Shown here in pieces: positions 1,886 to 22,673 of a DNA stretch of 64,000 nt. Each line of letters starts with the position of its first letter. Position 1 is the first letter of the stretch. Origin of the DNA: Thermoleophilia bacterium (GTDB lineage Bacteria > Actinomycetota > Thermoleophilia > BMS3ABIN01); NCBI GenBank assembly GCA_014859345.1, contig JACUUL010000004.1:2516-66515 (forward strand), given 5' to 3'. A model generated the notes under the pieces. It was not told the DNA's origin, searched no databases, and was given only the letters and a program-made list of their open reading frames with translations. The translations under genes were made by a program, and so were the position numbers.

Positions 1886-1927
1886 GTCGCGAGACATCCG
1901 CGATGATTGAGGAATCCGTCAAGCATT

Positions 1928-1971
1928 CGGGGACTCGACCTTATCTACGGTGGATAAACAGGTCGAGCCCC
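1928..1971. terminator. Imperfect GC-rich inverted repeat between the convergent PP2C phosphatase and dsrE-like genes; a possible bidirectional terminator
   Basis: GGGGACTCGACC (1928-1939) and GGTCGAGCCCC (1960-1970) form an 11-bp stem with one mismatch and a 20-nt loop. There is no clear U-tract. Confidence 0.25.
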
Positions 1972-2027
1972 CGAACAAGATCTGCCCCCAATGAATATTG
2001 AAATCGTATCCCTCCGGGCTGCCCTGC

Positions 2028-2495: not shown

Positions 2496-2506
2496 TTAGT
2501 TCGTCA

Positions 2507-2749: not shown

Positions 2750-2824
2750 TTTCTCCTCCTTCTGTTTTGGTTTTTGTGCCACGACTCTAGATGGCGGCTT
2801 GCACGGGCGGGAGAGCTCCGCCAC

Positions 2825-5064: not shown

Positions 5065-5148
5065 CGGTCTCCCCCGAAATTGAAACCAGCCATCAGATAT
5101 TTGAAAAGGTCGTTGCGTGCAGGCGGACTACCCGATTAATGTCCGGGT

Positions 5149-6795
5149 CTACAAAAGTGCCTTTCCGCCCGATGATTCCCTCCTGGATTCAGGGATGTCG
5201 CTAACAGCCGGCGTCCGACGGCCGGGCACCAGGGCCAGCACCTGCTTCAGGAGGTCCAGCCGCAGGTGGGTCTGGTTCATGAAGCCACCTCTGTAAGCCT
5301 TCTCTTCCATCTCCAGGTCGTAACACGTTGTTGACTCTATATCAATGATTACGCCATCCAGGCCCGAGTTGCTAAAAGCACGGTGGCGGCGGGCCAGGAA
5401 AGCCCGGCAGCAGCAGCCTATAAACGATGAGATTCCAGCCCGTCGGCAGGCGGCGAAAGTCCTGAGCAAGTGTTCGTAATCCTGGATGGTGACCGGCTTC
5501 AGCCCCTTGGCCAGCGCCAGTTCGTATGCCTCCCCCACCGTGCAGCCGCCGCACAGGTCGCAGCCCTCCTGGTTCCGGCAATCGTGGTCAGGCAGTTTGG
5601 CGCAGTAGGGCAGCAGCAGGGCCTTGGCCGCGGCAGCGGCACGCGGCAGGCTCTGGGCTCCCACAACCGATACACGGTTGGCGTCATTCAGGCTGATGCC
5701 GTAACCGGGAAACTCCAGTTTGTCGAGACAGCCTTTCAGGCTCAGCCAGAATTCCTGGGCTCCCAGGCCCAATGCCTCCGCGCCGCTGTTTGAGAAAAAG
5801 CTGTGTATGGCAGCCTCGGCCCGGTCGAAGGTGACACCCCTGAGGCTTGCTTCCAGGTCCAGCGCCGCCCGCGCCGGCCTGATGAAGAAATCCCCGGTAA
5901 ACAGGACGCTTTTGATGCGGTTCCGTCGCAGGTCCACGGACAGGCAGCTCCGCACCAACCCGCCTTCCCCCCTGTGAATATTGGCCAGCATCGGGTGCGA
6001 GCCGGCTGCTTCCTCGCTGATCTGGTTGACCCAGGCTTCGGAGCGGTGAAAAGGCAGCTTTTTATCAAGCCCGGCCTCTTCCCGGGGCGTCAGTTCCCCG
6101 GGCGCCAGTTCCACGCCCAGTTCCCGGCTGAACCCCTGAGCCAGAGCCTGCTTGACATCGTTTGCGGAAGGGGTCCGAGGCAACAGTTCCTGGAGGCAAG
6201 TAACCCGGCCGCGGGCGGAATCCAGTTCCCGCGCCGAGAGCTTCTCGGCCGGGACCTTCAGGGCGCGAACCATGGTTTCGGGGTCGAATTCCATGAGCAG
6301 GGTGCCCTGGAAAAGGAAAGCATCTCCCTCATAGGCGCCTCCGGTGCCGCACAGCTTGCGGCCATCTACCTCGATGTCATTGCGAGGCCTGAAAGCGGCG
6401 GTTACCCCAAGAAGCTCGAGTCCGGAGACCACCCCGCGGCAGATGAACGCGGTGAGTTCCTGAAGACGCGGCCCGGCGCCGATATCCCGCCGGGAAGCAA
6501 TGACCTCCCACCCGATCTGCGTGGTGTCCAGATAGACTGCCCCTCCTCCGGTCAGGCGGCGGTTAACCTCCATGCCGCGACTGAGGCAATAGTCCTGGCG
6601 TATTTCCTGGGCCACGATCTGGTGCCGGCCGATCAGCGCCGCTGCGGGAACGAACTGGAGAAACCTGATCGTACCGGGGATCTCCCCCCGGGCGGCCATC
6701 TCCAGCAGCACCGAATCAAGGGCGATGTTGGCCGCGGCGCTGCGGGCTCCGGTATCCAGAAGCCGCCATGGGCCGGTTGGCTTCAAACGCCTCAC
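5149..6795 (-). CDS. Lipoate-protein ligase (LplA/sLpl(AB)-like) with an additional Cys-rich C-terminal domain
   Basis: 548 aa. The N-terminal 340 aa have LplA/BPL hallmarks (RRLTGGGAVYLD, the K-containing catalytic region). The C-terminal 200 aa carry CRNQEGCDLCGGC and GCCCRAF cysteine clusters. There is a 4-nt overlap with the upstream radical-SAM gene. Confidence 0.7.
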   Translation of the reverse strand: MRRLKPTGPWRLLDTGARSAAANIALDSVLLEMAARGEIPGTIRFLQFVPAAALIGRHQIVAQEIRQDYCLSRGMEVNRRLTGGGAVYLDTTQIGWEVIASRRDIGAGPRLQELTAFICRGVVSGLELLGVTAAFRPRNDIEVDGRKLCGTGGAYEGDAFLFQGTLLMEFDPETMVRALKVPAEKLSARELDSARGRVTCLQELLPRTPSANDVKQALAQGFSRELGVELAPGELTPREEAGLDKKLPFHRSEAWVNQISEEAAGSHPMLANIHRGEGGLVRSCLSVDLRRNRIKSVLFTGDFFIRPARAALDLEASLRGVTFDRAEAAIHSFFSNSGAEALGLGAQEFWLSLKGCLDKLEFPGYGISLNDANRVSVVGAQSLPRAAAAAKALLLPYCAKLPDHDCRNQEGCDLCGGCTVGEAYELALAKGLKPVTIQDYEHLLRTFAACRRAGISSFIGCCCRAFLARRHRAFSNSGLDGVIIDIESTTCYDLEMEEKAYRGGFMNQTHLRLDLLKQVLALVPGRRTPAVSDIPESRRESSGGKALL

Positions 6796-7859
6796 CCGCT
6801 TCCCTTTACCGCGTCGCCACCGCGCTTACCGGCGCTTGTCACGGCCGGGTCCGGACTTTGCCCCTCGGGATCCTTATCCTCAGGGCAAAAACCCAGGGCG
6901 CAGCACATGCCGGAGAACTCCGGCTCTAACCCCATCTTCCGGGCCAGGCCGATGATTCCCTCGGCTGGATAGGCGATGCCGTTCAGACCGGCCTTAAGCG
7001 CCAGCTGATCGGTCAAGAGGCGGTGCTCTCCGGCCGGCCGCTCGCAGCCCAGCTGAATCGGCTTATCAGGCACGAGTTCCCGCGCCGCCATGAAAATCTC
7101 AGCCATCTGCTCCGGGGAGGGCGGCATCACGTCCCGCATCGGAGTATCCTTCATGGGGAGCAGTCCCACCATGACCAGGCTGGCTATATCATGGCGGCTG
7201 ATGATCTCGAGCGCCTGGAGTTCGCCTCTGATACGGCCGCGGTCAAGGCCGATCACCACATGGGGAGATGCCGGCACTCCGGCATCGTTGAGATTGGCCA
7301 GGGACCTTTCGTAATCGGCCATGGTTGCCTGAGGCAGGTGGCACACATCACTGATGGTCCGGCCGCATCCGATGATGTCAATCAGGGCCGCATCCACACC
7401 GGCGGCGGCCATGCCCCGGGCCAGTGACCGTCCGGTAATGCCGGTGTGGACGATGACCCTGAGCCCGAACCGTTCCCTTACTTCACGGATAGCTTCCAGA
7501 AAGCCGGCCAGCGGCACCGCTCCGTCAGCGTCGGATCCGCCGCTAACCAGCAGCCCCCTGGCGCCCTGGCGCATAAAACGCGCGGCTTCCGCCGTTAGCG
7601 CTTCCGGAGTTACCGCCGGTTTCATCCATTTGAGGACATGGGCCCGGCAATGATCGCACATGAGACGGCATGAGGATCCGGTAATCGAAACTGCCGGGAA
7701 AGAACAGGCGCTGTCCTGCCTGAATTCAGAAGTCGAATAACGCCTGATTGATGGAGCGTGAAAATAGACGCGCCTGCCGAAATGCCGCCGGCCGATCTCC
7801 CAGCCCGGCCTGAGGCTCTCGGGCACTTCGGCGGAAAGGACGTGCCGGCGGCCAGCCAT
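6792..7859 (-). CDS. Radical SAM protein, LipS1/LipS2-type candidate; first gene of the operon
   Basis: 355 aa. CRLMCDHC is a CxxxCxxC motif, in TIM-barrel-like context (GGSD, VIVHTG). Its stop overlaps the ligase start. Confidence 0.65.
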   Translation of the reverse strand: MAGRRHVLSAEVPESLRPGWEIGRRHFGRRVYFHAPSIRRYSTSEFRQDSACSFPAVSITGSSCRLMCDHCRAHVLKWMKPAVTPEALTAEAARFMRQGARGLLVSGGSDADGAVPLAGFLEAIREVRERFGLRVIVHTGITGRSLARGMAAAGVDAALIDIIGCGRTISDVCHLPQATMADYERSLANLNDAGVPASPHVVIGLDRGRIRGELQALEIISRHDIASLVMVGLLPMKDTPMRDVMPPSPEQMAEIFMAARELVPDKPIQLGCERPAGEHRLLTDQLALKAGLNGIAYPAEGIIGLARKMGLEPEFSGMCCALGFCPEDKDPEGQSPDPAVTSAGKRGGDAVKGSG

Positions 7860-7870
7860 GCTGGACCTGC

Positions 7871-8524
7871 CTAGGCCGACGGCGTCTGGCCCTGGGGAAC
7901 AGGGCCCGACGGATCTCCGCCTTCTATGTCATAACTGGATTGGATTTTCGGGTGCGCGTAGTACGTCGTCGCCAGCCGGGGGGCGTTTCTGTCGGTGAAC
8001 TCAAACCAGTCCATCCCTGCCGCGACAGACCGGTCTACCACAATTCTGAGGGCTACTTCGTCATTGGGCGTATTTTCATCTGTGCCATAAACAACGGTCT
8101 CCACGCTGGCCACTTCAGGATACTTAAAGAGCCTGGCCATCATTTTCTGCGCGAAAGTAACGCCGATTCCCACCACGGCGCCGTCATGACAGGCGCTGGG
8201 GCGGCTGACGCTGATTACGATATCCTTGTCGTTGCCCTGTGAAGTGATCTGCACAGACCGGATCAGATTTTTCTCCCCGATCCTTCTGCCAGCCAGCTCG
8301 GCCACATCCGCCTCGGTGACTGAAAAAACCGGCTTGGCCTCAGTTGAAGCGGGGTCAGCTTCAGCGACAGCGCCATCATCAGAGGCAGAATCGCCGCCAC
8401 AGCCGGCAGCCGTGAATGACACAGCCAGCAATAAAATCGCGAGCGCCGGCAAGAACAGGACGCCGCGGAATCTTCCATGCGGCGTAACGTGTTTGATATT
8501 ACCTGTCGGCTGATTTGATTTCAT
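7871..8524 (-). CDS. Hypothetical lipoprotein
   Basis: From the internal ATG at 8524 the product reads MKSNQ...LPALAILLLAVSFTAAGCGGD: a signal peptide plus an LTAAGC-type lipobox. It has an Asp/Ala-rich linker and no catalytic motif. Confidence 0.45.
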   Translation of the reverse strand: MKSNQPTGNIKHVTPHGRFRGVLFLPALAILLLAVSFTAAGCGGDSASDDGAVAEADPASTEAKPVFSVTEADVAELAGRRIGEKNLIRSVQITSQGNDKDIVISVSRPSACHDGAVVGIGVTFAQKMMARLFKYPEVASVETVVYGTDENTPNDEVALRIVVDRSVAAGMDWFEFTDRNAPRLATTYYAHPKIQSSYDIEGGDPSGPVPQGQTPSA

Positions 8525-8725
8525 GGAGGATGGCCTTTCTGATGCAGGCTGCATAAAAGCCCTTTCGATCTCAACATGACGATAAACAAGAGTATACCAC
8601 AGCCCCTCTGACGACCGGCTTAATGGAAACACCTGTCTTCTCTGCGCCTCAATTTTGCCTAAAATCGACTTAGTGTCTATACTTACTTAACTTGCCCGCT
8701 TTTATGTAGAAAACAAGGAGTTGGA

Positions 8726-9727
8726 ATGATATCTGGATTCCGTGCGGTTTCGCTGATAATGGCCGGACTTTTCGGGACGATCGCGATAGCTGGTCTGGCA
8801 GGATGTGGCTCATTGCCGGATGACGCCGCCGCCAGCGTCAATGGGGAGATTATTACCAAAGCGGAAGTTGCGGACCGCATTGATAACCTCCGTAAGGTCT
8901 ACAGCGCCATGATCCCATCTGAGGAGGATGAAGCCGGTTACGGCGATTTAAGGCGGGAAGTGGCCGATCAGCTGGTCAGGGAGGAACTGGAGCGCCAGGA
9001 GACAGAGAAACGTGGCATCACCGTTTCCGAAGCCGAGATCGACGAGCGCATGGAGTATACCGCCGAAGAGAAGTTTCTTGGCGACACCGTGAGGATGATC
9101 GAGGAATTTGAGGGAATGGGCATCTCCGTGGAGCAGATGCGCGACGATATCAGGCGCACGATTCTCCATGAGAAAATGGAAGCTGACATCGGCAAGGATA
9201 TCCAGGTTACGGACGAGGACGCACGGGATTACTATGAACGTAACATAGGGCAGTACGTTCAGCCGGAGCGTCGCCAGGTGCGCCAGATAATCACAAGCGA
9301 CGAAGCTGACGCGGCTGCCGCAGTCAGCCGTCTGCGGGCCGGTGAGGACATGCTCCAGCTTGTTTCAGAAATATCCATAGATGAAACCGCGGCTGCCAGA
9401 AGAGGCGCCCTGGGCCTGGTTTCGCCAGGACAACTGGCTCCCGAGCTGGACCAGGCGATATCGGGATTGGGGAACGGCGAGATTTCCGATCCTGTCCGGC
9501 TGGGAGAACAGTGGTATGTGTTTAAGGTTGAGAACATAATTCCGGCCATGTTGCGTTCTTTCGAGGACGTCAGGAACGAAATTATTGTCATATACGGCGG
9601 ACAGCTTTATTCCCAGAAATGGCGCGAATTCGTGAGCGAGGTATATGACAATGCCTCAATCAAGTTCGACAAGGAGTATGACCCCGCGTTCAAGAAGTCC
9701 GATGTGCCTAACGCCCCGGTAAAGTAA
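8726..9727 (+). CDS. Parvulin-type peptidyl-prolyl isomerase lipoprotein (PrsA/SurA-like)
   Basis: Signal peptide plus lipobox (IAGLAGCGS), then SurA-N-like helices and a C-terminal PpiC domain (GALGLVSPGQLAPELDQAI...WYVFKVENI). Confidence 0.6.
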   Translation: MISGFRAVSLIMAGLFGTIAIAGLAGCGSLPDDAAASVNGEIITKAEVADRIDNLRKVYSAMIPSEEDEAGYGDLRREVADQLVREELERQETEKRGITVSEAEIDERMEYTAEEKFLGDTVRMIEEFEGMGISVEQMRDDIRRTILHEKMEADIGKDIQVTDEDARDYYERNIGQYVQPERRQVRQIITSDEADAAAAVSRLRAGEDMLQLVSEISIDETAAARRGALGLVSPGQLAPELDQAISGLGNGEISDPVRLGEQWYVFKVENIIPAMLRSFEDVRNEIIVIYGGQLYSQKWREFVSEVYDNASIKFDKEYDPAFKKSDVPNAPVK

Positions 9728-9765
9728 AGTGGCCCCTAATACTGCCGCGGGCGGGTCAAGGGCGA

Positions 9766-9793
9766 TTGACGACGGCTTCTGTCAACTTGACGG
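9766..9793. promoter_or_regulatory. Palindrome TTGAC-N10-GTCAA followed by a TTGACGG repeat, upstream of the ABC transporter genes; candidate operator or promoter element
   Basis: Seen directly: ttgacgacggcttctgtcaacttgacgg. An AT-rich stretch follows at 9880-9910. Confidence 0.25.
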
Positions 9794-9959
9794 CTGATGC
9801 TTGAACGCCCCTGTATAAGGGTGATACAATCGCTTTGATTGTCTTTCCAGTCAAGTTCCGTCGTACCAGTTCTTAATGTTGTGTAATTAAAATGTTGAGT
9901 AATACGGCGGTTTTGTCTTAATTTGGTGGGGCGTACATACATTATTCAAGGGGTAGCGG

Positions 9960-10889
9960 GTGAAGATGGCGGCAGCCGTCGAGATTGAAGGGCTCACAAA
10001 GTCGTACGGTTCATCTGATGGCGAGGTCAGGGCTGTTGACTGGTTGAGTTTCCGGGTGGAGCAGGGAGAGGTATTCGGATTCTTGGGGCCTAACGGCGCC
10101 GGCAAGACAACAACCGTCCAGATACTCATGCAGGTCATCTTCCCCACCTCCGGCAGCGCCAGGCTGCTGGGAAAACCGCTCGGCGACCTGGAATCTCGCT
10201 CCCAGATAGGATACCTGCCGGAGCTGTGCCAGTTCCATTCCCATCTTCGCGCCGACGAATTCCTGGACTTCCATGGACGTCTTTACGGCATGCCCGCTGG
10301 CGCGAGAAGAAAACGCATCGACGAGGTGCTGGAGCTTGTCGGGCTCAGCGAAAATCGCAAGTCCCGCATTCGTACGTTTTCCAAGGGCATGATGCAGCGC
10401 ATAGGCATCGGCCAGGCCATCATTAATAACCCCCGCCTCCTGTTTCTCGACGAACCTGCCTCAGCCCTTGACCCGATGGGGCGCCGGGATATGCGGGATC
10501 TCCTCATGTCCCTGAAAGACAGGGGAACCACGGTCTTCATGAATTCGCACCTTCTCTCGGAAGTGGAAATGACGTGCGCCCGGGTGGGGATCATGAACAG
10601 GGGAAAGCTGGTGCAGGTCTCGGACCTTAAGTCGATGATCAAACCGGGCCACACTGTGGAAATCCGGGCCGCCGGCATCACCGATCGCGTCATGGAACAG
10701 ATCCGCGATTTGGCCAAGCGCGTGCAGCAGGATGATGGCTGTCTGATGGTGACCGTTGACAAGGAGGAGTTGCTGAGCCACCTTGCCCGCATGATCATGG
10801 AAAGTGGCGCCAATCTGATGGAGTTCACACCGAGGCAGATGCCTCTTGAGGAAGCTTTTTTGCAGTTAATCCAGGAGTCCGACGCATGA
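9960..10889 (+). CDS. ABC transporter ATP-binding protein
   Basis: Walker A GPNGAGKTT, the Q-loop, the signature-like FSKGMMQR, and Walker B LLFLDEPASALD. The stop overlaps the permease start (ATGA). Confidence 0.85.
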   Translation: MKMAAAVEIEGLTKSYGSSDGEVRAVDWLSFRVEQGEVFGFLGPNGAGKTTTVQILMQVIFPTSGSARLLGKPLGDLESRSQIGYLPELCQFHSHLRADEFLDFHGRLYGMPAGARRKRIDEVLELVGLSENRKSRIRTFSKGMMQRIGIGQAIINNPRLLFLDEPASALDPMGRRDMRDLLMSLKDRGTTVFMNSHLLSEVEMTCARVGIMNRGKLVQVSDLKSMIKPGHTVEIRAAGITDRVMEQIRDLAKRVQQDDGCLMVTVDKEELLSHLARMIMESGANLMEFTPRQMPLEEAFLQLIQESDA

Positions 10890-11713
10890 AAACATGGGCT
10901 CTGGCAAGGTTCACCGTGAAGGAAGCCGTTCGGGGCAAAGCCATGATCGCCGGACTGGTGATCAGTTTGCTGTATTTGGCCCTGGTGCCCGCTTTCAGCT
11001 CACCCAGTGGCGGTAACGCCATAGTAGGCGATGAGCAGATGAGGATCGCGGCCAGCCGTGAATTTCTGAATTTCGCGCTGGGCGGCCTCAATTTCATCGG
11101 CATGTTTCTGGCAATCTTCACAACCCTGGGCACAATTTATTCGGAGATTGAGAGGGGGACCATCGTCACCCTGGTTACCAAGCCAATCAGCCGCGTCCAG
11201 TTAATTGCCGGAAAGTGGCTGGGGCACGTCATGCTCATGGCCGCCTATGTGATTATCATGGGGCTGGCTCTGTGGCTCTCGGTGGCGCTTGGCTCCGGCA
11301 TGCTGGTCTGGCGTTTCTTCCCCGCCCTGATGCTTGTTTGCCTTAATGTCATCACCATGGTCTCTCTGACGCTGGCTTTCTCCACAGTATTGCCGGTCGT
11401 GGCAAACGCTGTTTTTGTCTTCTTGATGATGGTGATCACATCCAACCTGCGGATAGTGCATGCCATCGGCGAAACTTCACAAAACGCGGTGATCATGGTG
11501 GCGGCCAACCTCTTCCGCATGGTGCTGCCGGTTGGCGAGGTCAATGATCTTGCCGGCCGGATTATGCTGGGTCAGACCCAGGCGTCGAATCTCATGGGCG
11601 TAAGCCCGTCGGCATTCACACCCCGGGCCTGGTCTTTTCTTTACGAACTGGTGTATCTTTCCGCGCTGTTGATGATTGCGGTGCTGTTGTTCCAGAAAAA
11701 AGACCTGAGCTAG
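10886..11713 (+). CDS. ABC-2 type transporter permease
   Basis: 275 aa with 6 predicted TM helices, translationally coupled to the ATPase. Confidence 0.6.
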   Translation: MKTWALARFTVKEAVRGKAMIAGLVISLLYLALVPAFSSPSGGNAIVGDEQMRIAASREFLNFALGGLNFIGMFLAIFTTLGTIYSEIERGTIVTLVTKPISRVQLIAGKWLGHVMLMAAYVIIMGLALWLSVALGSGMLVWRFFPALMLVCLNVITMVSLTLAFSTVLPVVANAVFVFLMMVITSNLRIVHAIGETSQNAVIMVAANLFRMVLPVGEVNDLAGRIMLGQTQASNLMGVSPSAFTPRAWSFLYELVYLSALLMIAVLLFQKKDLS

Positions 11714-12486
11714 ATGAGGATGGGCTCATCCCGGCCGCGCTCAATTCCCAGGCGTTCGGGATGGGAGTAGACGCGCAATTTGGCCGGACCCATGCTGCCC
11801 ACCAGGCTGATTCCCGTTTCGCCCGCCATGGACAGGGCCAGGGATGTGGGAACTCCCCGGGACAACATCAAAGGGATGCCAAAGCGGATCAGTTTCGCAA
11901 CGGCGTCAGCTGAAATGCGGCCGGTGGCAGCGATGAAGAGTTTCCCGGGGTCGAGACCGCGGGCAGCCGTAAAGCCCAGGATCTTGTCCAGCGCGTTATG
12001 ACGGCCGATATCCTCTCTCAGCGCCATGATTTCTCCGTTCGCGTCTGCGATGGCGGCGCTGTGAACTCCCCGGGTCTGCCGGTACAGCTCTCCTTTCCTC
12101 AAGACCCGCGACAGGACGGCCCGCACCATGGCCGGGCCGAAGATCGTGTCCCCCATATGACCGCGCCTGCCCGCCAGGTACGCGCGTTGAGCACAACCGC
12201 TGTAAATCACTAACGGTTTCGGATCCTGGTTTTTTGCTGTCATCGCTTCCGTTCCGGCCCGGGACCCGGCGACGTCATTTTCCGGCGGATGCCTGAGGGT
12301 AACGCTCACCCGGCGATTGCCTTGCTCCGCCCTTACGCATAATACATCCGTCTGCTCAGGTATCAGCTCCTGGCTCAAAAGATAACCAACCGCCAGCTCA
12401 TCGAGATTAAGAGGGGTGCAATGGATAACAGCCACCATCCGGCCGTCAACCAGCAGTTCGACAGGCTCCTCCGCTGGCACCGCCAC
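11710..12486 (-). CDS. fdhD: FdhD-like sulfurtransferase (formate dehydrogenase accessory protein family)
   Basis: The conserved Cys loop (SGCAQRAY) and the GRHNALDK motif near the C-terminal domain are typical of FdhD. Confidence 0.75.
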   Translation of the reverse strand: MAVPAEEPVELLVDGRMVAVIHCTPLNLDELAVGYLLSQELIPEQTDVLCVRAEQGNRRVSVTLRHPPENDVAGSRAGTEAMTAKNQDPKPLVIYSGCAQRAYLAGRRGHMGDTIFGPAMVRAVLSRVLRKGELYRQTRGVHSAAIADANGEIMALREDIGRHNALDKILGFTAARGLDPGKLFIAATGRISADAVAKLIRFGIPLMLSRGVPTSLALSMAGETGISLVGSMGPAKLRVYSHPERLGIERGRDEPILI

Positions 12487-12716
12487 GGTGGGCCAGGATA
12501 ATTCTCCGGCCTGCCAGAGCGTGACATCAGATTTTATTATCGGGGCGCTGTCTTCGCCGTGGTTCGAAATTGGTCTTCTCCCCCGCGTGGCGGTGTAAGC
12601 CCGCCTTTGTCAGGTAGTTACCTTGTCAATTTCTGATTGAATCCAGCTATCCGGCGCCGATTATACCAGTCCGGCAATCTTCCGGGCTTTCATTTTTCAG
12701 CCCCGATAGGCTAGAA

Positions 12717-13157
12717 TTGTTTTCGATGAAGAGATTTCTGTCCATTCCTCTGCTCATTCTGGGTTTCATTCTGCTTGCGGGCATGGTTCTGACTGCCGGT
12801 TGCGGAGAAGAAACGGAAACAGCCGCCCAGATCGAGTGCGACTTCGATGCCCCCAGCCTTATTCCTGCCCCCGGGGATCAGCCCCAGCTCGTGTACTTCT
12901 TCCGCGACACATGACCGGCCTGCCAGAAGCAGACGCCCATCGTCGATGAGCTGAATCAGGAATATACCGGGAAAATCGAAGTAATCAAATACGACCTGAC
13001 GGTGCCTGAAAACTCATGTGAGTTTGCCCGTTACAACCTGGAATACATTCCCGGAATGCTTTATATCTCCAAAGACGGCAGGATCATCGAGAAGACAAAC
13101 TCTCTCATGGAAAAAGAGCAGTTGAGAGCCAAGCTGGAGAATCTTCTCAAGCAATAG
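12717..13157 (+). CDS. Thioredoxin-fold lipoprotein with an in-frame TGA at 12912-12914; candidate selenoprotein (U-P-A-C redox motif), 146 aa if TGA is read as Sec
   Basis: Signal peptide plus lipobox (LTAGCGEE). The ORF stops at TGA after LVYFFRDT, but the same frame continues PACQKQTPIVDELNQEY... for 80 more codons to a TAG at 13155. The TGA sits exactly at the first Cys position of a thioredoxin WCxxC motif. Confidence 0.55.
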
Positions 13158-13217
13158 GCGCCAGGAGGTTGGCAGAATCATGATCCGCCTCGTTCGACCT
13201 CTCCCGATACCCTGATT

Positions 13218-13658
13218 CTAGCGGCTTCTCGATCGATTCGGCAATCTGATCACGTCGGATCTCAGGTCAGCGAAATTTACCGAATCCATGTCCCGGTGGA
13301 TGTCATCGACCATCTTCTCCCAGAAAACGTGCAATGAGCACACTTCTCCCCGGCCGTTGCCGCATTCACCCGGGCGGACCAGGCAGCGATTCAGAAGCAG
13401 CGGACCGTCGATGGCTTCTACGACCATCCTGATGGAGATATCCCCGGGCGGCATTGCCAGAGCGATGCCTCCGCGGCTGCCCCGGATCGTTCTCAACAAG
13501 CCGGCGCGGGCAAGAGTTCTCACAATCGTGGGCAGGTACTTCTCAGGCATGTTCTGGCGCCGGGCTATCTCGCGCGTCTGGGACAGTTCTCCATCGCCAT
13601 TTTCAGCCAGAGCCATCACCGTGCGAATGGCGTAATCTGCTTGCCGGCTTATCTCCAT
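13218..13658 (-). CDS. Rrf2-family transcriptional regulator (IscR/NsrR-like)
   Basis: N-terminal wHTH MEISRQADYAIRTVMALAENGDGELSQTREIARRQNMPEKYLPTIVRTLARAGLL, with three C-terminal Cys (CLVRPGECGNGRGEVC) typical of Fe-S-binding Rrf2 proteins. Confidence 0.75.
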   Translation of the reverse strand: MEISRQADYAIRTVMALAENGDGELSQTREIARRQNMPEKYLPTIVRTLARAGLLRTIRGSRGGIALAMPPGDISIRMVVEAIDGPLLLNRCLVRPGECGNGRGEVCSLHVFWEKMVDDIHRDMDSVNFADLRSDVIRLPNRSRSR

Positions 13659-13913
13659 AAATACCTCCCCGGCCTGATGGCCGGTATTTGTCTGTACCAG
13701 CGCTAAACGACGGGAAACAATGCGTTAAACATAATCATATTTATACACATTAACTAATCACATTAAATCAGGATGCGGTTTCTGTCAACAAGAAGATTAA
13801 CGGACGGGGAGATCCTTTTTCATGACCGGGTGGAAAGGGGCCACGATCCTGCCCGGAAAGAGCAATATGAAGCATGGCCTATTGGGGGAATCGCCGGCGA
13901 CAGGATGAAGGTT

Positions 13914-14186
13914 TCATCCGGAGACTGCCGGCATTATGGAGATGACATCCCCCTCGCGGACTGCTGTGTTGAGATCGTTCAGATAACGGATATCTTCACC
14001 GTTCAAAAAGATCCTGACATTCGGCCAGGCCTGTCTCCTGGCGTCTATCAGCTCGTCCTTGAGGCCTTCGAACATCATCCCCAGGCTCTCGATCACTCCG
14101 CTGATGTCCTCGCCATCAGCCACCACCGTGCCGCCATCGCCTCGGAAGCTTCCCAGCGAAACCGGCAAGCGCACTTCGACTTCCAT
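13914..14186 (-). CDS. MoaD/ThiS-like beta-grasp sulfur-carrier-type protein (ends in a single Gly)
   Basis: 90 aa. The pattern ...RIFLNGEDIRYLNDLNTAVREGDVISIMPAVSG matches the MoaD C-terminal region, but it terminates ...VSG-stop instead of the canonical GG. It lies 20 nt downstream of the HIT gene. Confidence 0.45.
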   Translation of the reverse strand: MEVEVRLPVSLGSFRGDGGTVVADGEDISGVIESLGMMFEGLKDELIDARRQAWPNVRIFLNGEDIRYLNDLNTAVREGDVISIMPAVSG

Positions 14187-14206
14187 GACCCTCCCGCTGC
14201 TTGATC

Positions 14207-14752
14207 TCAGCTGTTTCCGTAAACCTCGAACTGCGGCTCCAAAAATCTGTACGTCTCCGAAAGAGCCTGAGGTATTACTCTCATATCGGCAATCACCGGC
14301 ATGAAATTATTGTCGCCCTGCCAGCGGGGGACGATGTGCATGTGCAGATGCTCCTTGATCGAGGAGCCGGCTATCTCGCCCAGGTTTATGCCGGCGTTCA
14401 GGGCATCGGGCTTCATGGTTTTCTTGAGCACTCTGATGCACTCCTGTGTCAGCGACATGACTTCCGCAGCCGCCTCGGGGTCGAGCAGCTCCAGCTCGGA
14501 GACGTGCTCATACGGAGCAATCATCAGGTGGCCCGGATTGTAAGGATACAGATTCATGATCACGAACGCGCGCCGGCCGCGATAAAGCACCAGGTTCTTC
14601 TGGTCATCGGTTTCCTCGATGACCCGGCAAAAAAGGCATGTCTTCTCCCTCTCCCCAAGAATGTATTCGATTCTCCAGGGAGCCCAGATGGGACGGTTGT
14701 CATTCGGATTTTGGAAATTGGCCATCGGGTACTGAATTGCCTGTATTTTCAA
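14207..14752 (-). CDS. HIT-family (histidine triad) nucleotide hydrolase/transferase
   Basis: HLHMHIVPR is the histidine-triad motif, and CLFCRV is the zinc-binding CxxC typical of the HIT family. Confidence 0.8.
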   Translation of the reverse strand: MKIQAIQYPMANFQNPNDNRPIWAPWRIEYILGEREKTCLFCRVIEETDDQKNLVLYRGRRAFVIMNLYPYNPGHLMIAPYEHVSELELLDPEAAAEVMSLTQECIRVLKKTMKPDALNAGINLGEIAGSSIKEHLHMHIVPRWQGDNNFMPVIADMRVIPQALSETYRFLEPQFEVYGNS

Positions 14753-14805
14753 ACCGCCGGATTCCGGATCAATCTTCCAGGCCCGGCATCAAATGCCTGC
14801 CTTTT

Positions 14806-14882
14806 TGGCGCGCCCGACAGGATTCGAACCTGTGGCCTTCGGCTCCGGAGGCCGACGCTCTATCCGGCTGAGCTACGGGCGC
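14806..14882 (-). tRNA. tRNA-Arg (anticodon CCG)
   Basis: 77-nt cloverleaf read on the reverse strand: GCGCCCGTAGCTCAGCCGGATAGAGCGTCGGCCTCCGGAGCCGAAGG...TTCGAATCC...GCCA. The anticodon loop is CTCCGGA, and CCA is encoded. Confidence 0.85.
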
Positions 14883-14956
14883 GAGCAATCCGGTCAAGCA
14901 TACCAGACGCCGGGAAACGGCATTCAAAGGCGTCAGCCAACATCCAACCCGGTTTC

Positions 14957-15050
14957 TGGCGGAGAGGGAGGGATTCGAACCCTCGAGACGAGTTAACCCC
15001 GTCTACACGATTTCCAGTCGTGCTCCTTCGGCCAGCTCGGACACCTCTCC
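14957..15050 (-). tRNA. tRNA-Ser (anticodon GGA)
   Basis: 94-nt class II tRNA with a long variable arm: GGAGAGGTGTCCGAGCTGG...GACTGGAAATCGT...GGTTCGAATCC...GCCA. Confidence 0.85.
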
Positions 15051-15114
15051 ATGAAGCGGATGGATGCCGGGATGGCGGATGCTTAAGCCCGCGTCGACAT
15101 CCAACTTCTCTTTT

Positions 15115-15210
<96 letters not shown>

Positions 15211-15253
15211 ACGCAGAAATGGCGGACCGCTCATACCGGGATAGTTTAACGGA

Positions 15254-15292
15254 AGTATGCGTGGCGGGAAAGCCGCTTACGGCACGCATAAC
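15254..15292. other. Nested inverted repeat (TATGCGTG...CACGCATA enclosing GCGGG-AAA-GCCGC) between tadA and tRNA-Ser(CGA); possible processing or termination structure
   Basis: Seen directly as agtatgcgtggcgggaaagccgcttacggcacgcataact. No U-tract follows. Confidence 0.25.
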
Positions 15293-15336
15293 TGGACCTT
15301 TCGGGCCGCCGGGGCCGCCGCCCTTGCGGTCTCCGA

Positions 15337-15792
15337 TTATCGCCTGGCGGTGAAGAATACCCTGAGCGTCTCCGCGGCCATGCCGGCCATCACGCCGCCG
15401 GTAACCTCGACCCGATGGTTGAGACGCCCGTCGCGAACTATGTCCATGAGGGATCCGCAGGCCCCCGCTTTTAAGTCAGGGGCGCCAAAGACCAACCTGT
15501 CGATACGGGCCTGGTATATGGCGCCCGCGCACATGGGGCAAGGCTCGACGGTAACATATATGGTACAGCCCCTCAGGCGCCACCCGCCCAGCTTTTCAGC
15601 TGCCTGACGGATTGCCAGAATCTCCGCGTGAGCAGTGGGATCCTTGGCCGTCTCCCGCTTGTTGCCGGCCGCGGCGATCACTTCTCCCCGTTGCTCGATT
15701 ACCGCGCCCACCGGCACCTCTCCCCTGGCAGCCGCCATCCGGGCCTCTTTCAGGGCTCTGCGCATAAACTTCTGATCGTCTCTGTCTTTCAT
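15337..15792 (-). CDS. tadA: tRNA-specific adenosine deaminase
   Basis: CDA-fold zinc motifs HAEILAIR and TVEPCPMCAGAI. The start is taken at MKDRDDQ (ATG at 15792). It lies immediately downstream of tRNA-Arg(ACG), its substrate. Confidence 0.8.
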   Translation of the reverse strand: MKDRDDQKFMRRALKEARMAAARGEVPVGAVIEQRGEVIAAAGNKRETAKDPTAHAEILAIRQAAEKLGGWRLRGCTIYVTVEPCPMCAGAIYQARIDRLVFGAPDLKAGACGSLMDIVRDGRLNHRVEVTGGVMAGMAAETLRVFFTARR

Positions 15793-15941
15793 GAGAACTG
15801 GTTGGTTGACCTCGGCGGGGATGATGGCGTAAAGGCTTGCCAAAGCATGGATTTTTTGGTTTTAATTCCGGATATGCCGTTTAGGAAGCGAAGCGCCCCC
15901 TGCATTTTTGACCGGGGGATCCGCAGATATCGTTCATATTT

Positions 15942-16018
15942 TGGCGCGCCCGACAGGATTCGAACCTGTGACCTCTTGATTCGTAGTCAAACGCTCTATC
16001 CAGCTGAGCTACGGGCGC
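15942..16018 (-). tRNA. tRNA-Arg (anticodon ACG)
   Basis: 77 nt: GCGCCCGTAGCTCAGCTGGATAGAGCGTTTGACTACGAATCAAGAGGTCACAGGTTCGAATCCTGTCGGGCGCGCCA. Confidence 0.85.
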
Positions 16019-16075
16019 GCGAATGCGGATCGTGCATCCGGGCGTTGGATTATATCCATCCAATGTCCGGCTTTC

Positions 16076-16171
16076 TGGCGGAGAGGGAGGGATTCGAACC
16101 CTCGAAGGAGGCTTAAAACCCCCTTAATCGCTTAGCAGGCGATCGCCTTCAGCCGGCTCGGCCACCTCTCC
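16076..16171 (-). tRNA. tRNA-Ser (anticodon GCT)
   Basis: 96-nt class II tRNA with anticodon loop CTGCTAA. Confidence 0.85.
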
Positions 16172-17431: not shown

Positions 17432-18781
17432 CTACATGGGCGTATCTCTGCCTGCCGCCCGGGCAAAGGCCATTGCCGTCCCCCGGTAGACCATGTGCGC
17501 CATTTTTGAGAACGGCGCGTACATGAACAGAAACAGCACGGCGACCAGATGCACAAAATAGGTCGGATATGCAAGCACACCGATGTCTAGCTTGCGGAAC
17601 GCCGCCGAGCCGATGCCGGTGAACATCAGTACTATTACCAGTACGATAAGCAGCCAGTCAAAATAGCTGCCCATGCCGGTTTTCTGCTGATGCTTGAACC
17701 GGTTGATCGTAATCAGTCCGATGCCGATGACGCCCGCTGCGGCTCCCGTGTAGCCGAAGAACTTGACGGGGTGGATCGTCGGAAACGGAGAATGCGTCCC
17801 CTCGCCGCCCCAAAGCAGCGGCCCGTAGGTATAAAGCACCGACACTGCGGTGGCAGCGAAAAGCAGGCCGAAGGAATAGAAAATGAACAGGTGTGACGTC
17901 TTTCTGTCCTTTGTCTCGTCGCACTTGCCGAATCGCTTGTGGGTGATTATCTCCGACAGGACCGGTCCCACCTGGGCCAGCCCTCCGGTTTTTAACCGGA
18001 TCCCTTCCCTGTCGGCATGAGCCTTCATCATTCCCCAATAGTTGCGCACCCCCAGGGCCAGAACCAAGATGCCCAGGATGAAAAAGGTGCTGAACACGAT
18101 GTCAATGGCGATGGTTTTCATGAAGTTGTTGTACACGATCTGCTCTACGCCGCCTAGTACTTCCCTTTCCGGTGTAAAGCTTCCGCCCCCCAGAACCCCG
18201 ATCACCAAAGCCAGTATGATCACCGGTATGGCGGTCATGAGCAGCAGCGCCGTGGGGCTGCCCACTCCCTTGGCCAGAAATCCCGGCTTGGACAGGCTGG
18301 GAATGCTCATCTTGGCCACGGCCTGCATCACCCGTCCCGGCTTGGCGTCCCGGGGGCATTGGGCCGTGCAGTCGTTGCACTGATGGCACAGCCAGATATC
18401 CGGATTGGCAATCAGCTTTTCCTTGAGCCCCCACTGGGCCCACATCATTTCCTTGCGGGGAAACGGATGGTCATCCGGAGTCACGTTGCATACAACCGAG
18501 CAGGAGGCGCACTGGAAGCATTTCTTCAGATCATTGCCGCCGCTGCCCATGACTTCACGAACGAACTTTATGTCGGGCTGAATCATCCTGGCCGGCGCTT
18601 CCTGAGCCGCCGGTTCCGCGGCAGGCGATTCGCCCTCCGGGGCGCCTTCTGCCCCGGGCTCTCCGGATTCAGGCTCCGGGTTCGCTGTGGCCACCACACT
18701 CTCTTCCGCGGCTGCCGCCTCAGCCTGAGCCTCTCCGGCGCCCGCTGTTTCTTCGCTCTTTTCTACATTTTCATCAGCCAT
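17432..18781 (-). CDS. qmoC: Quinone-interacting membrane-bound oxidoreductase subunit C (HdrC/HdrE-like fusion)
   Basis: Ferredoxin-like Cys motifs (CFQCASCSVVC, CHQCNDCTAQCP) followed by 6 TM helices of the HdrE/NarI-like haem-b domain. The start has a strong AGGAGGG SD. There is an unusual 65-aa acidic Ala/Glu/Pro-rich N-terminal extension. Confidence 0.75.
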   Translation of the reverse strand: MADENVEKSEETAGAGEAQAEAAAAEESVVATANPEPESGEPGAEGAPEGESPAAEPAAQEAPARMIQPDIKFVREVMGSGGNDLKKCFQCASCSVVCNVTPDDHPFPRKEMMWAQWGLKEKLIANPDIWLCHQCNDCTAQCPRDAKPGRVMQAVAKMSIPSLSKPGFLAKGVGSPTALLLMTAIPVIILALVIGVLGGGSFTPEREVLGGVEQIVYNNFMKTIAIDIVFSTFFILGILVLALGVRNYWGMMKAHADREGIRLKTGGLAQVGPVLSEIITHKRFGKCDETKDRKTSHLFIFYSFGLLFAATAVSVLYTYGPLLWGGEGTHSPFPTIHPVKFFGYTGAAAGVIGIGLITINRFKHQQKTGMGSYFDWLLIVLVIVLMFTGIGSAAFRKLDIGVLAYPTYFVHLVAVLFLFMYAPFSKMAHMVYRGTAMAFARAAGRDTPM

Positions 18782-18791
18782 ATCATCCCTC

Positions 18792-21191: not shown

Positions 21192-21192
21192 A

Positions 21193-22473: not shown

Positions 22474-22673
22474 AGGGTCCCTCCTAAAAGCTGGATATTG
22501 GATTTTGGATATTGGATGTTGGAAAACAATTTTTTAACCTGATCAGGACATGCTTATCGCGGATGTATCCAATGTCCAATATCCAAGGTCCAAACAGCCG
22601 CTTATTTAAGGCGGGACAGGTCGATAGCGACCTGTCCCGCCCGGAATTGTCCAGCTCCTGTAGCCAGCCCGTA

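What the first reader, a model, noticed from the sequence alone, without database searches (positions are those of the whole stretch)
12717..13157. In-frame TGA at the CxxC position of a thioredoxin-fold lipoprotein: likely an unannotated selenoprotein (UxxC)
The called ORF ends at TGA (12912-12914) after ...LVYFFRDT, but the same frame continues PACQKQTPIVDELNQEYTGKIEVIKYD... for 80 more codons. The TGA falls exactly where thioredoxins carry the first Cys of WCxxC (compare VVDFWAEWCGPCKMIAP). Reading TGA as Sec gives a 146-aa signal-peptide/lipobox protein with a U-P-A-C redox centre. Cys-to-Sec replacement at the CxxC position is the classic signature of redox selenoproteins, which gene callers truncate or miss. 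It is flanked by an FdhD-like gene and an Fe-S-type Rrf2 regulator.
Basis: partly seen in the sequence, partly recalled or inferred. Interest (0 to 1): 0.75.

Follow-up and report, generated by a model that had tools for sequence, protein, structure and literature searches.

The report
Unannotated thioredoxin-like lipoprotein selenoprotein gene
A small gene that gene callers cut in two at an internal TGA very probably encodes one membrane-anchored thioredoxin-like protein with selenocysteine in its active site, a well-known kind of protein but a family not listed in the curated catalogue we could check (NCBIfam), found so far only in uncultured Thermoleophilia (Actinomycetota).

Summary
One reading frame (ATG 12726 to TAG 13157) is interrupted only by TGA at 12912-12914, which aligns with the nucleophilic Cys of the thioredoxin WCGPC motif.

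Evidence for selenocysteine:
- 20 related loci, 16 distinct sequences with the window, all have TGA at this codon, never TAA or TAG. The real terminal stops of the same genes drift freely.
- Both halves are under purifying selection.
- The only Cys form found has CPSC at this position.
- A hairpin 23-41 nt after the UGA (loop C-G-U-N-R) fits three of the four published bacterial SECIS criteria; stability is inconclusive. It is nucleotide-invariant, including synonymous sites (p about 1e-5).
- The same peptide is encoded with hairpin-breaking codons in the Cys form and in distant Cys homologs.

An independent assembly reproduces the TGA. TGA is otherwise an ordinary stop in this window.

The product is a 143-aa lipoprotein with a U-P-A-C centre and two further conserved Cys. 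It sits in conserved synteny (FdhD | gene | Rrf2/ThiS/HIT) in Thermoleophilia MAGs.

Not shown: selA/selB/selC/selD (absent from the window; the genome is unavailable), selenium incorporation, and the substrate.

No curated NCBIfam selenoprotein model matches. Verdict: a real, unannotated selenoprotein and a new member of a known kind.

The parts
12726..13157 (+). Complete selenoprotein coding sequence (143 codons plus stop): ATG 12726, in-frame TGA 12912-12914 (residue 63), true stop TAG 13155-13157. Gene callers split it into a 65-aa call (12717-12914) and nothing, or a GTG-started fragment, downstream.
   Evidence: Orthologous read-through ORFs occur in 20 loci. dN/dS is about 0.21 upstream and about 0.31 downstream of the TGA.
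12726..12803 (+). Lipoprotein signal peptide: MKR, a hydrophobic core, and lipobox L-T-A-G-C. The lipidated Cys26 is codon 12801-12803.
   Evidence: Read directly from the sequence. A lipobox [LVIMA..][AGS]C is present in all 19 loci that include the N-terminus. The one Cys-form relative has a transmembrane anchor instead, so the domain is extracytoplasmic in both.
12912..12914 (+). UGA codon predicted to encode selenocysteine (U63), the attacking residue of the U-P-A-C redox centre. The resolving Cys66 is 12921-12923.
   Evidence: Aligns to the first Cys of thioredoxin CGPC and to Cys in P0003. TGA in 21/21 loci, against terminal stops TAG 7 / TAA 6 / TGA 2 in the same genes.
12935..12951 (+). 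Candidate bacterial SECIS hairpin GC-C-CAU-[CGUCG]-AUG-A-GC. The apical G-U is at 12942-12943. In the window C12941 and G12945 can close a 3-nt GUC loop. In relatives an extra A-U pair (nt 23/41) extends the stem.
   Evidence: RNAalifold consensus. 93.8% of cells paired, and the one stem change is G-C to G-U. Zero synonymous variation in the stem codons (5/5 against 5/70 elsewhere, p=1.5e-5). The hairpin is destroyed by synonymous changes in the Cys form and not kept in distant Cys homologs. Loop pattern and 26-27 nt spacing fit the bSECIS model of PMC13188914. The motif is unique in the window.
12915..12970 (+). Possible lower stem enclosing the hairpin. In the window this is CCGG 12915-12918 with CCGG 12967-12970. 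In relatives nt 8-13 pairs with nt 58-63 or nearby registers. Not established.
   Evidence: Constrained folds give -6.7 to -18.9 kcal/mol, but in varying registers. The fixed-register helix is 72.9% paired with weak covariation (11/500 shuffles as high). Window z-score is only -1.07.
12837..12839 (+). Conserved extra cysteine Cys38 (E-C-D) in the N-terminal extension of the mature protein.
   Evidence: Invariant in all 15 distinct aligned Sec-form sequences and also present in the Cys form P0003.
13017..13019 (+). Invariant extra cysteine Cys98 (C-E-F). It is followed by the thioredoxin cis-Pro109 (13050-13052).
   Evidence: Invariant columns C98, E99 and P109 in alignment A3. Codon use at this Cys is free (TGT 9 / TGC 6), so the constraint is on the protein.
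11710..12486 (-). FdhD/NarQ-family gene, divergently transcribed. A conserved neighbour, not a demonstrated functional partner.
   Evidence: PF02634 E=9.4e-55. The same neighbour is present in L002, L004, L007 and L009.
13218..13658 (-). Rrf2-family regulator, convergent with the selenoprotein gene. A conserved neighbour.
   Evidence: PF02082 E=7.1e-34. The same neighbour is present in L002, L006 and L009.

Best explanation
Window 12726-13157 is one gene for a 143-aa extracytoplasmic lipoprotein with a thioredoxin fold. Its active site is Sec63-Pro-Ala-Cys66.

Translation does not stop at UGA 12912-12914. A short hairpin in the coding sequence 23-41 nt downstream, with a G-U in its apical loop, acts as a bacterial SECIS element that recruits SelB carrying Sec-tRNA(Sec), so selenocysteine is inserted (inferred).

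After export and lipidation at Cys26, the domain sits on the outer face of the cytoplasmic membrane of a Thermoleophilia actinobacterium. There it works as a thiol/selenol-disulfide oxidoreductase. The selenolate of U63 attacks a substrate disulfide or another oxidised sulfur species, and Cys66 resolves the selenenylsulfide. This resembles ResA/TlpA/DsbE-type extracytoplasmic thioredoxins, but with the faster Sec nucleophile (inferred from family knowledge).

Two further conserved cysteines (Cys38, Cys98) probably form a structural or second redox pair (speculative).

Shown: one continuous conserved ORF, a conserved UGA at the Cys position, the thioredoxin domain, the lipobox, and an RNA-level constraint specific to the UGA forms.
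Inferred: SelB dependence, selenium incorporation, direction of electron flow, and substrate.
For: - Fold and position. Pfam Thioredoxin E=2.9e-11. The TGA aligns with the first Cys of CGPC in solved thioredoxins.
- Conservation of the UGA. An exhaustive HMMER search with the C-terminal 80 aa gave as best hits 57-78-aa truncated calls starting about 10 residues after the TGA position. Reading their DNA showed an in-frame TGA at the same codon in every case. An unbiased back-translated metagenome scan added 11 more. In total 21/21 loci and 16 distinct sequences have TGA. The true terminal stops of the same genes are TAG 7 / TAA 6 / TGA 2.
- Selection. dN/dS is 0.21 and 0.31 on the two sides, with dS about 1.1. 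Codon +10 is GTC or GTT in 9/21 loci, including the window, so the C-terminal half has no conserved start codon.
- Cys counterpart. P0003 has CPSC.
- SECIS. A conserved hairpin. Synonymous variation is absent at codons +3, +4, +7, +8, +9, +11 and +12 (7/12 columns against 3/63 elsewhere, p=3.9e-5; stem codons 5/5 against 5/70, p=1.5e-5). The variable Val third position lies in the loop. The Cys form encodes PIVDEL with CCA..GAC GAA, which breaks three stem pairs, and distant Cys homologs use varied codons. The loop N1-G-U-N-N2 and the 26-27 nt spacing satisfy the published bSECIS model (PMC13188914).
- Not an artefact or alternative code. An identical independent assembly. TGA ends 17 of 45 long ORFs in the window.
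- Lipoprotein. A lipobox in all full-length members.
- Prior. Sec decoding is documented in some Actinobacteria, including Rubrobacter (PMC1794560).
Against: - No selA, selB, selD or tRNA-Sec is present in the 64-kb window, in about 4.8 kb beyond its right end, or in the related loci. The rest of the genome could not be searched.
- The conserved hairpin is short and weak on its own (-1.0 to -3.6 kcal/mol; -2.2 in the window). This is above the -7.5 kcal/mol limit of the bSECIS model unless variable lower stems are counted.
- The window's unconstrained MFE fold uses a different, non-conserved hairpin, and its z-score is only -1.07.
- The stem is invariant, so there are no compensatory changes. 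Evidence for pairing rests on one G-C to G-U change and on synonymous-site conservation.
- No Rfam model matches.
- There is no experimental evidence of selenium incorporation.
- The structure prediction was too poor to test the geometry.
Confidence: 0.88

Rival explanations
1. The UGA is recoded, but not to selenocysteine. Cys (or Trp) is inserted, either by a SelB-compatible non-canonical tRNA-Cys reading UGA or by hairpin-stimulated near-cognate read-through. The product would then be an ordinary CxxC thioredoxin-like lipoprotein made at reduced yield.
For: All the sequence evidence (conserved UGA, downstream hairpin, coding on both sides) shows recoding, not the identity of the inserted residue. 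The Sec machinery was not found in the available sequence. From my own knowledge, SECIS-dependent insertion of Cys by tRNA-Sec-like tRNA-Cys species has been proposed for some anaerobes.
Against: A UGA kept in 16 distinct sequences, with only one Cys-codon relative in 5.8 billion proteins, argues that something other than Cys is wanted at this site. A TGA-to-TGY change is a single step that would otherwise be favoured. The site is the catalytic nucleophile, where Sec gives a known advantage. The hairpin loop fits the SelB-type consensus.
Confidence: 0.05
2. The TGA is a genuine stop. The locus makes a 62-residue lipopeptide, and the downstream thioredoxin-like sequence is either a separately initiated small protein or untranslated.
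For: This is how gene callers annotate it (65-aa call in L039; split calls in L002, L003, L007 and L009). In 12/21 loci a GTG lies at codon +10.
Against: The stop would cut a thioredoxin fold between beta-1 and its active-site helix, exactly at the catalytic Cys position. The 9 codons between the TGA and the supposed start are the most conserved part of the gene, including the resolving Cys. Codon +10 is not a start codon in 9/21 loci, including the window. A C-terminal fragment would lack the signal peptide. A stop codon fixed as TGA contrasts with the drifting terminal stops.
Confidence: 0.03
3. Pseudogene, sequencing or assembly error (TGA for TGC/TGT), or an alternative genetic code in which TGA is a sense codon.
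For: A single-base difference separates TGA from TGC or TGT. The source is a metagenome-assembled genome.
Against: An independent assembly is identical over 13.7 kb. The same TGA occurs in 20 other loci from many samples. There is purifying selection on both sides. TGA terminates 17 of 45 long ORFs in the window, and normal-length proteins with full Pfam coverage are obtained with table 11.
Confidence: 0.01

Closest known systems
Thioredoxin selenoproteins (Trx, PF00085, UxxC), listed as experimentally verified in the prokaryotic selenoprotein table of PMC13188914
   Same: A thioredoxin-fold domain matching PF00085 above threshold. Sec replaces the N-terminal Cys of CxxC. The SECIS lies inside the coding sequence just after the UGA. 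The gene is truncated in annotation.
   Different: It is not a canonical cytoplasmic thioredoxin (TIGR01068 41.3 bits against a cutoff of 96.8). It carries a lipoprotein signal peptide, a roughly 35-residue N-terminal extension with a conserved Cys, an invariant extra Cys (CE[FY]), and the motif DT-U-P-x-C-Q instead of W-U-G-P-C. It is restricted, so far, to Thermoleophilia MAGs.
[quoted passage not shown]
   Same: Predicted extracytoplasmic thiol-disulfide oxidoreductases with UxxC. The same logic of Cys-to-Sec replacement at the nucleophile applies.
   Different: Pfam Thioredoxin_2 (22.7 against 27) and Redoxin (18 against 26.6) are below threshold. It is a minimal thioredoxin domain without the TlpA/ResA insertion. 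Anchoring is by lipid.
ResA / StoA / TlpA / DsbE-type membrane-anchored or lipoprotein thioredoxins of monoderm bacteria
   Same: Extracytoplasmic, membrane-tethered, single thioredoxin domain with CxxC and cis-Pro. There are weak NCBIfam similarities to StoA and ResA. This is the likely mode of action.
   Different: Scores are far below the family cutoffs (StoA 24 against 210; ResA 23.7 against 170). Those proteins use Cys, not Sec. No CcdA/DsbD or cytochrome-c maturation genes lie next to it.
Curated Trx-like selenoprotein families with NCBIfam models (SaoT NF040730, TUGYCR NF053656, PDO_seleno_TRX TIGR02187)
   Same: Small thioredoxin-like proteins with Sec in the redox motif, discovered as truncated ORFs.
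   Different: No membership: 17 against 65, 14 against 100 and 11.7 against 185 bits. The motifs and gene neighbourhoods differ.

Membership tests
Bacterial selenoprotein (SECIS/SelB-dependent UGA recoding) | In-frame UGA aligned with Cys in homologs | tested here: met
   P0003 has CPSC. Distant homologs L022-L036 have CxxC. Solved thioredoxins have CGPC.
Bacterial selenoprotein (SECIS/SelB-dependent UGA recoding) | UGA (not UAA/UAG) conserved among orthologs, with coding conservation on both sides | tested here: met
   TGA in 21/21 loci and 16 distinct sequences. Terminal stops vary. dN/dS is 0.21 and 0.31 on the two sides.
Bacterial selenoprotein (SECIS/SelB-dependent UGA recoding) | bSECIS: apical loop of 3-9 nt on an upper stem of 4-16 bp | tested here: met
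   A 6-7 bp stem with one C.A mismatch, and a loop of 5 nt (or 3 nt when C30-G34 pairs). Criteria from PMC13188914.
Bacterial selenoprotein (SECIS/SelB-dependent UGA recoding) | bSECIS: G in the first two loop positions (N1-G-[G/U]-N-N2) | tested here: met
   The loop is C-G-U-N-R in all 16 sequences. In the window it is C-G-U-C-G, with C and G able to pair.
Bacterial selenoprotein (SECIS/SelB-dependent UGA recoding) | bSECIS: 16-37 nt between the UGA and the apical loop | tested here: met
   26-27 nt.
Bacterial selenoprotein (SECIS/SelB-dependent UGA recoding) | bSECIS: folding energy of -7.5 kcal/mol or lower | tested here: inconclusive
   The hairpin alone gives -1.0 to -3.6 kcal/mol. With the hairpin enforced over 66 nt, 15 of 16 sequences give -8.0 to -18.9 and L018 gives -6.7, but through lower stems in varying registers. 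The lower helix is only 72.9% paired.
Bacterial selenoprotein (SECIS/SelB-dependent UGA recoding) | RNA-level selection on the SECIS that is absent from Cys homologs | tested here: met
   Zero synonymous variation in stem codons, p=1.5e-5. The hairpin is broken by synonymous changes in P0003 and not kept in distant Cys homologs.
Bacterial selenoprotein (SECIS/SelB-dependent UGA recoding) | selA, selB, selC (tRNA-Sec) and selD present in the genome | not testable with these tools
   None in the window, its flank or the related loci. The rest of the MAG cannot be reached.
Bacterial selenoprotein (SECIS/SelB-dependent UGA recoding) | Selenium actually incorporated | not testable with these tools
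   Needs 75Se labelling or mass spectrometry.
Thioredoxin-fold domain (Pfam PF00085) | Profile match above the gathering score, with CxxC and cis-Pro aligned | tested here: met
   43.7 bits against 23.5, profile positions 18-102 of 103. Alignment to 4ulx/2yj7. The AlphaFold model was too poor to add anything.
Canonical thioredoxin TrxA (TIGR01068 / NF006898) | Score above the equivalog cutoff | tested here: not met
   41.3 against 96.8 and 36.7 against 138.
ResA/StoA/TlpA-type extracytoplasmic thiol-disulfide oxidoreductases | Score above the family cutoff (NF002854, NF041202, PF08534) | tested here: not met
   23.7 against 170, 24 against 210 and 18 against 26.6. It may work like these proteins but is not a member.
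Curated Trx-like selenoprotein families (SaoT, TUGYCR, PDO_seleno_TRX) | Score above the NCBIfam cutoff | tested here: not met
   17 against 65, 14.2 against 100 and 11.7 against 185.
Bacterial lipoprotein | N-terminal signal peptide ending in a lipobox with an invariant Cys | tested here: met
   MKR + hydrophobic core + LTAG|C. A lipobox is found in all 19 loci that include the N-terminus. Processing by Lgt/Lsp was not tested.

The most novel reading that the evidence does not exclude
This is a previously uncatalogued selenoprotein family. It is specific to an uncultured Thermoleophilia lineage that carries sulfate-reduction-type genes, and it is almost obligately Sec (16 distinct Sec forms against one Cys form). 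It is displayed on the cell surface as a lipoprotein, has a four-residue C...U-x-x-C...C redox layout, and uses an unusually small, sequence-invariant SECIS. Its fixed position beside FdhD, an Rrf2 regulator and a ThiS/CysO-like sulfur carrier would tie it to extracytoplasmic sulfur or selenium redox chemistry rather than to generic disulfide exchange.
Probability: 0.4. Interest if true: 0.5.

Novelty: new member of a known kind. Interest (0 to 1): 0.4.

Why it matters
It corrects an annotation. A 65-aa "hypothetical protein" and orphan 57-78-aa fragments in at least 16 sequence variants across public MAGs and metagenomes are halves of one redox enzyme.

It extends the selenoproteome to Thermoleophilia, a class for which a full-text search found no selenoprotein literature. 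It implies that these organisms keep the whole Sec machinery.

The family is nearly always Sec and has a compact, invariant SECIS. That makes it a convenient model for actinobacterial SECIS/SelB recognition and for asking why a surface-exposed thioredoxin needs selenium in a sulfide-rich habitat.

It does not change any concept. UxxC thioredoxin-fold selenoproteins are the commonest class of bacterial selenoprotein.

Tried and rejected
- A plain MFE fold of 12912-12975 gave a window-specific structure with z=-1.07. The SECIS only became visible by comparison across relatives.
- The word-indexed homolog search with the read-through protein found nothing. The single-protein scans of genome contigs and metagenome contigs found only one weak Bacilli locus (L001) and nothing, respectively.
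I used the exact C-terminal 80 aa instead.
- A 15-row alignment was too divergent for the locus scan. A 6-row alignment worked.
- AlphaFold2 on the Cys form with a 3-row alignment gave mean pLDDT 54. That is unusable for testing a Cys38-Cys98 disulfide, so no fold search was run.
- A fixed-register lower SECIS helix (nt 8-13 with 58-63) was tested and found inconclusive. A first hairpin, CUGC-CAGAA-GCAG, right after the UGA is not conserved.
- A search for a second selenoprotein gene in the window, as independent proof of Sec decoding, found none.
- There were no tRNA-Sec or sel genes in the window, in the flank (L037) or in 16 related loci.
- Rfam at permissive thresholds gave only chance-level hits.
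- The mud-volcano paper that produced the reads does not discuss this MAG. No paper links Thermoleophilia to selenocysteine.
- My initial guess of a deltaproteobacterial origin was rejected by the NCBI names of the window's own proteins.
Full report
**1. The observation**

The sequence is as described. An ORF opens at TTG 12717 / ATG 12726 and reaches TGA at 12912-12914 after ...LVYFFRDT. The same frame then continues PACQKQTPIVDELNQEYTGKIEVIKYD... for 80 codons to TAG 13155-13157. From the ATG the read-through product is 143 aa.

With the TGA read as Cys, the product matches Pfam Thioredoxin (PF00085, E=2.9e-11, 43.7 bits against a cutoff of 23.5, covering profile positions 18-102 of 103). 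Residue-by-residue alignments to solved thioredoxins (4ulx_A and 2yj7_A, E=3.8e-12) place the TGA on the first, nucleophilic Cys of W-C-G-P-C. The same alignments place IPG on the cis-Pro motif IPT. The neighbours are FdhD (11710-12486, minus strand) and an Rrf2 regulator (13218-13658, minus strand).

A systematic scan of every stop-TGA-stop configuration in the window found no other credible candidate.

**2. Not an artefact and not another genetic code**

A separate Logan assembly of the same read set (L039) is identical to window 1085-14832, with 0 mismatches in 13,748 nt, including the TGA. Of 45 long ORFs in the window (a few may not be real genes), 17 end in TGA, 18 in TAG and 10 in TAA. 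Table 11 gives full-length Pfam matches throughout. TGA is therefore a normal stop in this organism.

**3. Relatives**

The word-indexed search found no relative of the read-through protein. An exhaustive HMMER search with the exact C-terminal 80 aa did. Its best hits were 57-78-aa proteins that begin about 10 residues after the TGA position, which is the signature of truncated gene calls. There was also one 194-aa protein, P0003, with ...VYFYDES-C-PSC-QQLQPIVDEL....

Fetching the DNA encoding six of the fragments showed a short upstream ORF ending in TGA, in frame, 27 nt before each fragment. The read-through translation was ...YFY[KR]DT*P[AYS]CQ.... A back-translated scan of JGI metagenomes with a family alignment added 11 more close relatives. 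All have a stop at that codon. The distant thioredoxin-like hits in the same scan have Cys there.

In total 21 of 21 loci, 16 distinct sequences, carry TGA and never TAA or TAG. The true terminal stops of the same genes are TAG 7, TAA 6 and TGA 2.

Pairwise dN/dS is about 0.21 for the 20 codons before the TGA and about 0.31 for the 31 codons after it, with dS about 1.1 (a crude Nei-Gojobori estimate near saturation). Codon +10, which gene callers use as a GTG start, is GTC or GTT in 9 of 21 loci, including the window. The C-terminal half therefore has no conserved start of its own.

P0003 is the only Cys form in the 5.8-billion-protein collection.

**4. The recoding signal**

Aligning the DNA after the UGA shows that AGCCCAUCGUnnAUGAGCU (nt 23-41, counting the U of UGA as 1) is nearly invariant. 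RNAalifold predicts a hairpin AGC-C-CAU-[CGUNR]-AUG-A-GCU. On 16 sequences, 93.8% of cells are paired and the single stem substitution turns G-C into G-U.

The stem does not vary, so compensatory changes cannot be counted. I tested for RNA-level selection in two other ways.

- Synonymous-site test. Across 15 distinct codon-aligned genes, synonymous variation is zero at codons +3, +4, +7, +8, +9, +11 and +12. Other invariant residues (Cys98, Glu99, Pro109, Gly) use their codons freely. That is 7 of 12 scorable columns in +2..+13 against 3 of 63 elsewhere (Fisher p=3.9e-5), and 5 of 5 stem codons against 5 of 70 (p=1.5e-5). The freely varying third position of Val+10 lies in the loop.
- Cys-form control. 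P0003 encodes the same PIVDEL peptide as CCA AUC GUA GAC GAA CUC. Three of its synonymous differences break three stem pairs. Eight distant Cys homologs encoding KPIV[DEQ][EAR]L use assorted codons.

The nucleotide constraint therefore exists only where there is a UGA.

Measured against the published bSECIS model (PMC13188914), the element meets three of the four criteria.

| bSECIS criterion | Result here |
|---|---|
| Loop of 3-9 nt on a stem of 4-16 bp | Met |
| G in the first two loop positions (N1-G-[G/U]-N-N2) | Met (C-G-U-N-R) |
| 16-37 nt between UGA and loop | Met (26-27 nt) |
| Energy of -7.5 kcal/mol or lower | Inconclusive |

On the energy criterion, the hairpin alone is only -1.0 to -3.6 kcal/mol. 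The criterion is reached (-8.0 to -18.9) in 15 of 16 sequences, the exception being L018 at -6.7, only if lower stems of varying register are included. A fixed-register lower helix is 72.9% paired with weak covariation. In the window the hairpin is 12935-12951, with the G-U at 12942-12943.

No Rfam family matches. The motif is unique in the window.

**5. The protein**

Every full-length member starts with a basic n-region, a hydrophobic core and a lipobox ending in an invariant Cys (LTAG|C in the window, Cys26). The lone Cys form instead has a zinc-ribbon-like N-terminus and a transmembrane helix. In both designs the thioredoxin domain faces outward.

The family signature is an N-terminal x-C-[DN] (Cys38), PS[LI]IP, GKPQ, YF[YF]-x-DT-U-P-x-C-Q, PIV[DN]EL, an invariant C-E-[FY] (Cys98) and the cis-Pro. 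An AlphaFold2 model of P0003 was too uncertain (mean pLDDT 54) to tell whether Cys38 and Cys98 can bond.

**6. Organism and context**

The window's ATP sulfurylase is MBE0428487.1, "MAG: Thermoleophilia bacterium", on a 71.7-kb contig. Fragments P0002 and P0005 are also from Thermoleophilia MAGs. The reads come from a terrestrial mud volcano (PMC7565565), whose authors do not discuss this MAG.

The window also carries the following:

- an ATP sulfurylase,
- an AprA-like flavoprotein,
- two HdrA-like proteins, one with an MvhD/FlpD domain (QmoA/B-like), and a ferredoxin-domain protein (QmoC-like),
- an archaeal-type PEP carboxylase.

A sortase gene is seen in the Logan contig L037, which overlaps the window's right end.

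Synteny around the gene is conserved: SurA-like, ABC transporter, (DUF1786), FdhD, then the selenoprotein gene, then Rrf2 and/or ThiS-like (+PALP) and HIT, then a tRNA cluster.

No selA, selB, selD or tRNA-Sec lies in the window, in 4.8 kb beyond its right end, or in the related loci. The rest of the genome could not be reached with the tools. Sec decoding is known in some Actinobacteria, such as Rubrobacter (PMC1794560). A full-text search found no paper that discusses Sec use in Thermoleophilia.

**7. Mechanism**

The best explanation is SelB/SECIS-dependent insertion of selenocysteine at codon 63. This gives a surface-anchored thiol/selenol-disulfide oxidoreductase with a U-P-A-C centre.

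What is shown:
- one conserved continuous ORF,
- a UGA fixed at the catalytic Cys position,
- a thioredoxin domain,
- a lipobox,
- a UGA-specific RNA constraint at the right distance and with the right loop.

What is inferred:
- SelB dependence and actual selenium incorporation,
- the reaction: selenolate attack on a substrate disulfide or polysulfide, then resolution by Cys66,
- the electron partner and the physiological substrate.

FdhD is cytoplasmic, so the conserved divergent arrangement more likely reflects shared regulation than a direct interaction.

Rivals:
- recoding to Cys or another residue rather than Sec (about 0.05),
- a genuine stop giving two products (about 0.03),
- an artefact, a pseudogene or an alternative code (about 0.01).

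**8. Comparison with what is known**

UxxC thioredoxin-fold proteins are the commonest class of bacterial selenoprotein. Thioredoxin, thiol:disulfide interchange protein, DsbA/DsbG-like, Redoxin/TlpA-like, SaoT and others are catalogued in PMC13188914.

This protein is in the PF00085 superfamily. It falls far below the cutoffs of canonical TrxA, of ResA/StoA, and of every curated Trx-like selenoprotein model in NCBIfam release 20. It is therefore a new member, at the level of a family, of a known kind. I could not check BSepDB or deep-Sep predictions directly; the BSepDB paper's text mentions none of the relevant terms.

**9. Verdict**

Confidence that this is a genuine selenoprotein gene is about 0.88. 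Interest is moderate (0.4). The result is a solid annotation correction and extends the taxonomic range of Sec use, and the compact SECIS is convenient for study. It is not conceptually surprising.

Noticed in passing
window 17432-26550 (minus strand): A sulfate-reduction-type gene set lies on a contig attributed to a Thermoleophilia (Actinomycetota) MAG. It comprises ATP sulfurylase (25336-26550), an AprA-like flavoprotein (22674-24677), two HdrA-like proteins of which one has a C-terminal MvhD/FlpD domain (QmoA/QmoB-like, 18792-22473), and a ferredoxin-domain protein (QmoC-like, 17432-18781). Dissimilatory sulfur metabolism is unusual for this class. The assignments are at Pfam level only.
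   Followed up: partly
window 13914-14186 (minus strand): The ThiS/MoaD-like ORF ends ...IMPAVSG followed directly by TGA. Orthologs in L002, L004 and L006 end ...ILPAVAGG plus a short tail. A TGA therefore sits where the second Gly of the essential Gly-Gly end is expected. It could be a truncated carrier or a point mutation of GGA. Nothing suggests Sec here.
   Followed up: partly
window 2028-2749 (minus strand); L007 992-1715; L039 12084-12805: DsrE-like (2028-2495) and TusA (2507-2749) sulfur-trafficking genes sit about 10 kb from the selenoprotein gene and recur in relatives. I had first scanned the overlapping plus-strand ORF 1998-2531, which has no Pfam match.
   Followed up: no
window 14806-16171 (minus strand); L002, L011, L014, L016, L019: A cluster of tRNA-Arg(CCG), Ser(GGA), Ser(CGA), Arg(ACG) and Ser(GCU) lies just downstream of the locus and is conserved in relatives. 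None is tRNA-Sec.
   Followed up: yes
19 hits P0023, P0036 (also P0069, P0088, P0092, P0117): Other roughly 74-aa database proteins start at M-x-P-[IV]-V-D, which is right after where CGPC-K would be in a canonical thioredoxin. They look like C-terminal halves of other, unrelated truncated thioredoxin selenoproteins.
   Followed up: no
window 57576-59183 (-), 41313-42683 (-), 62688-63506 (+): An archaeal-type PEP carboxylase (PF14010), a GT87-family glycosyltransferase and a sortase (PF04203, seen in L037) are present. This fits a monoderm actinobacterial host rather than a proteobacterium.
   Followed up: no
cluster of P0005: The 90%-identity cluster of the 57-aa fragment P0005 also lists a 431-aa Streptomyces AroA (P0153). 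This is almost certainly a clustering artefact of the database, not biology.
   Followed up: no
L002 7842-8894, L007 3801-4865, L009 2918-3970: In several relatives a DUF1786 gene lies between the ABC transporter and FdhD. It is absent from the window, where FdhD directly abuts the ABC-2 permease gene.
   Followed up: no
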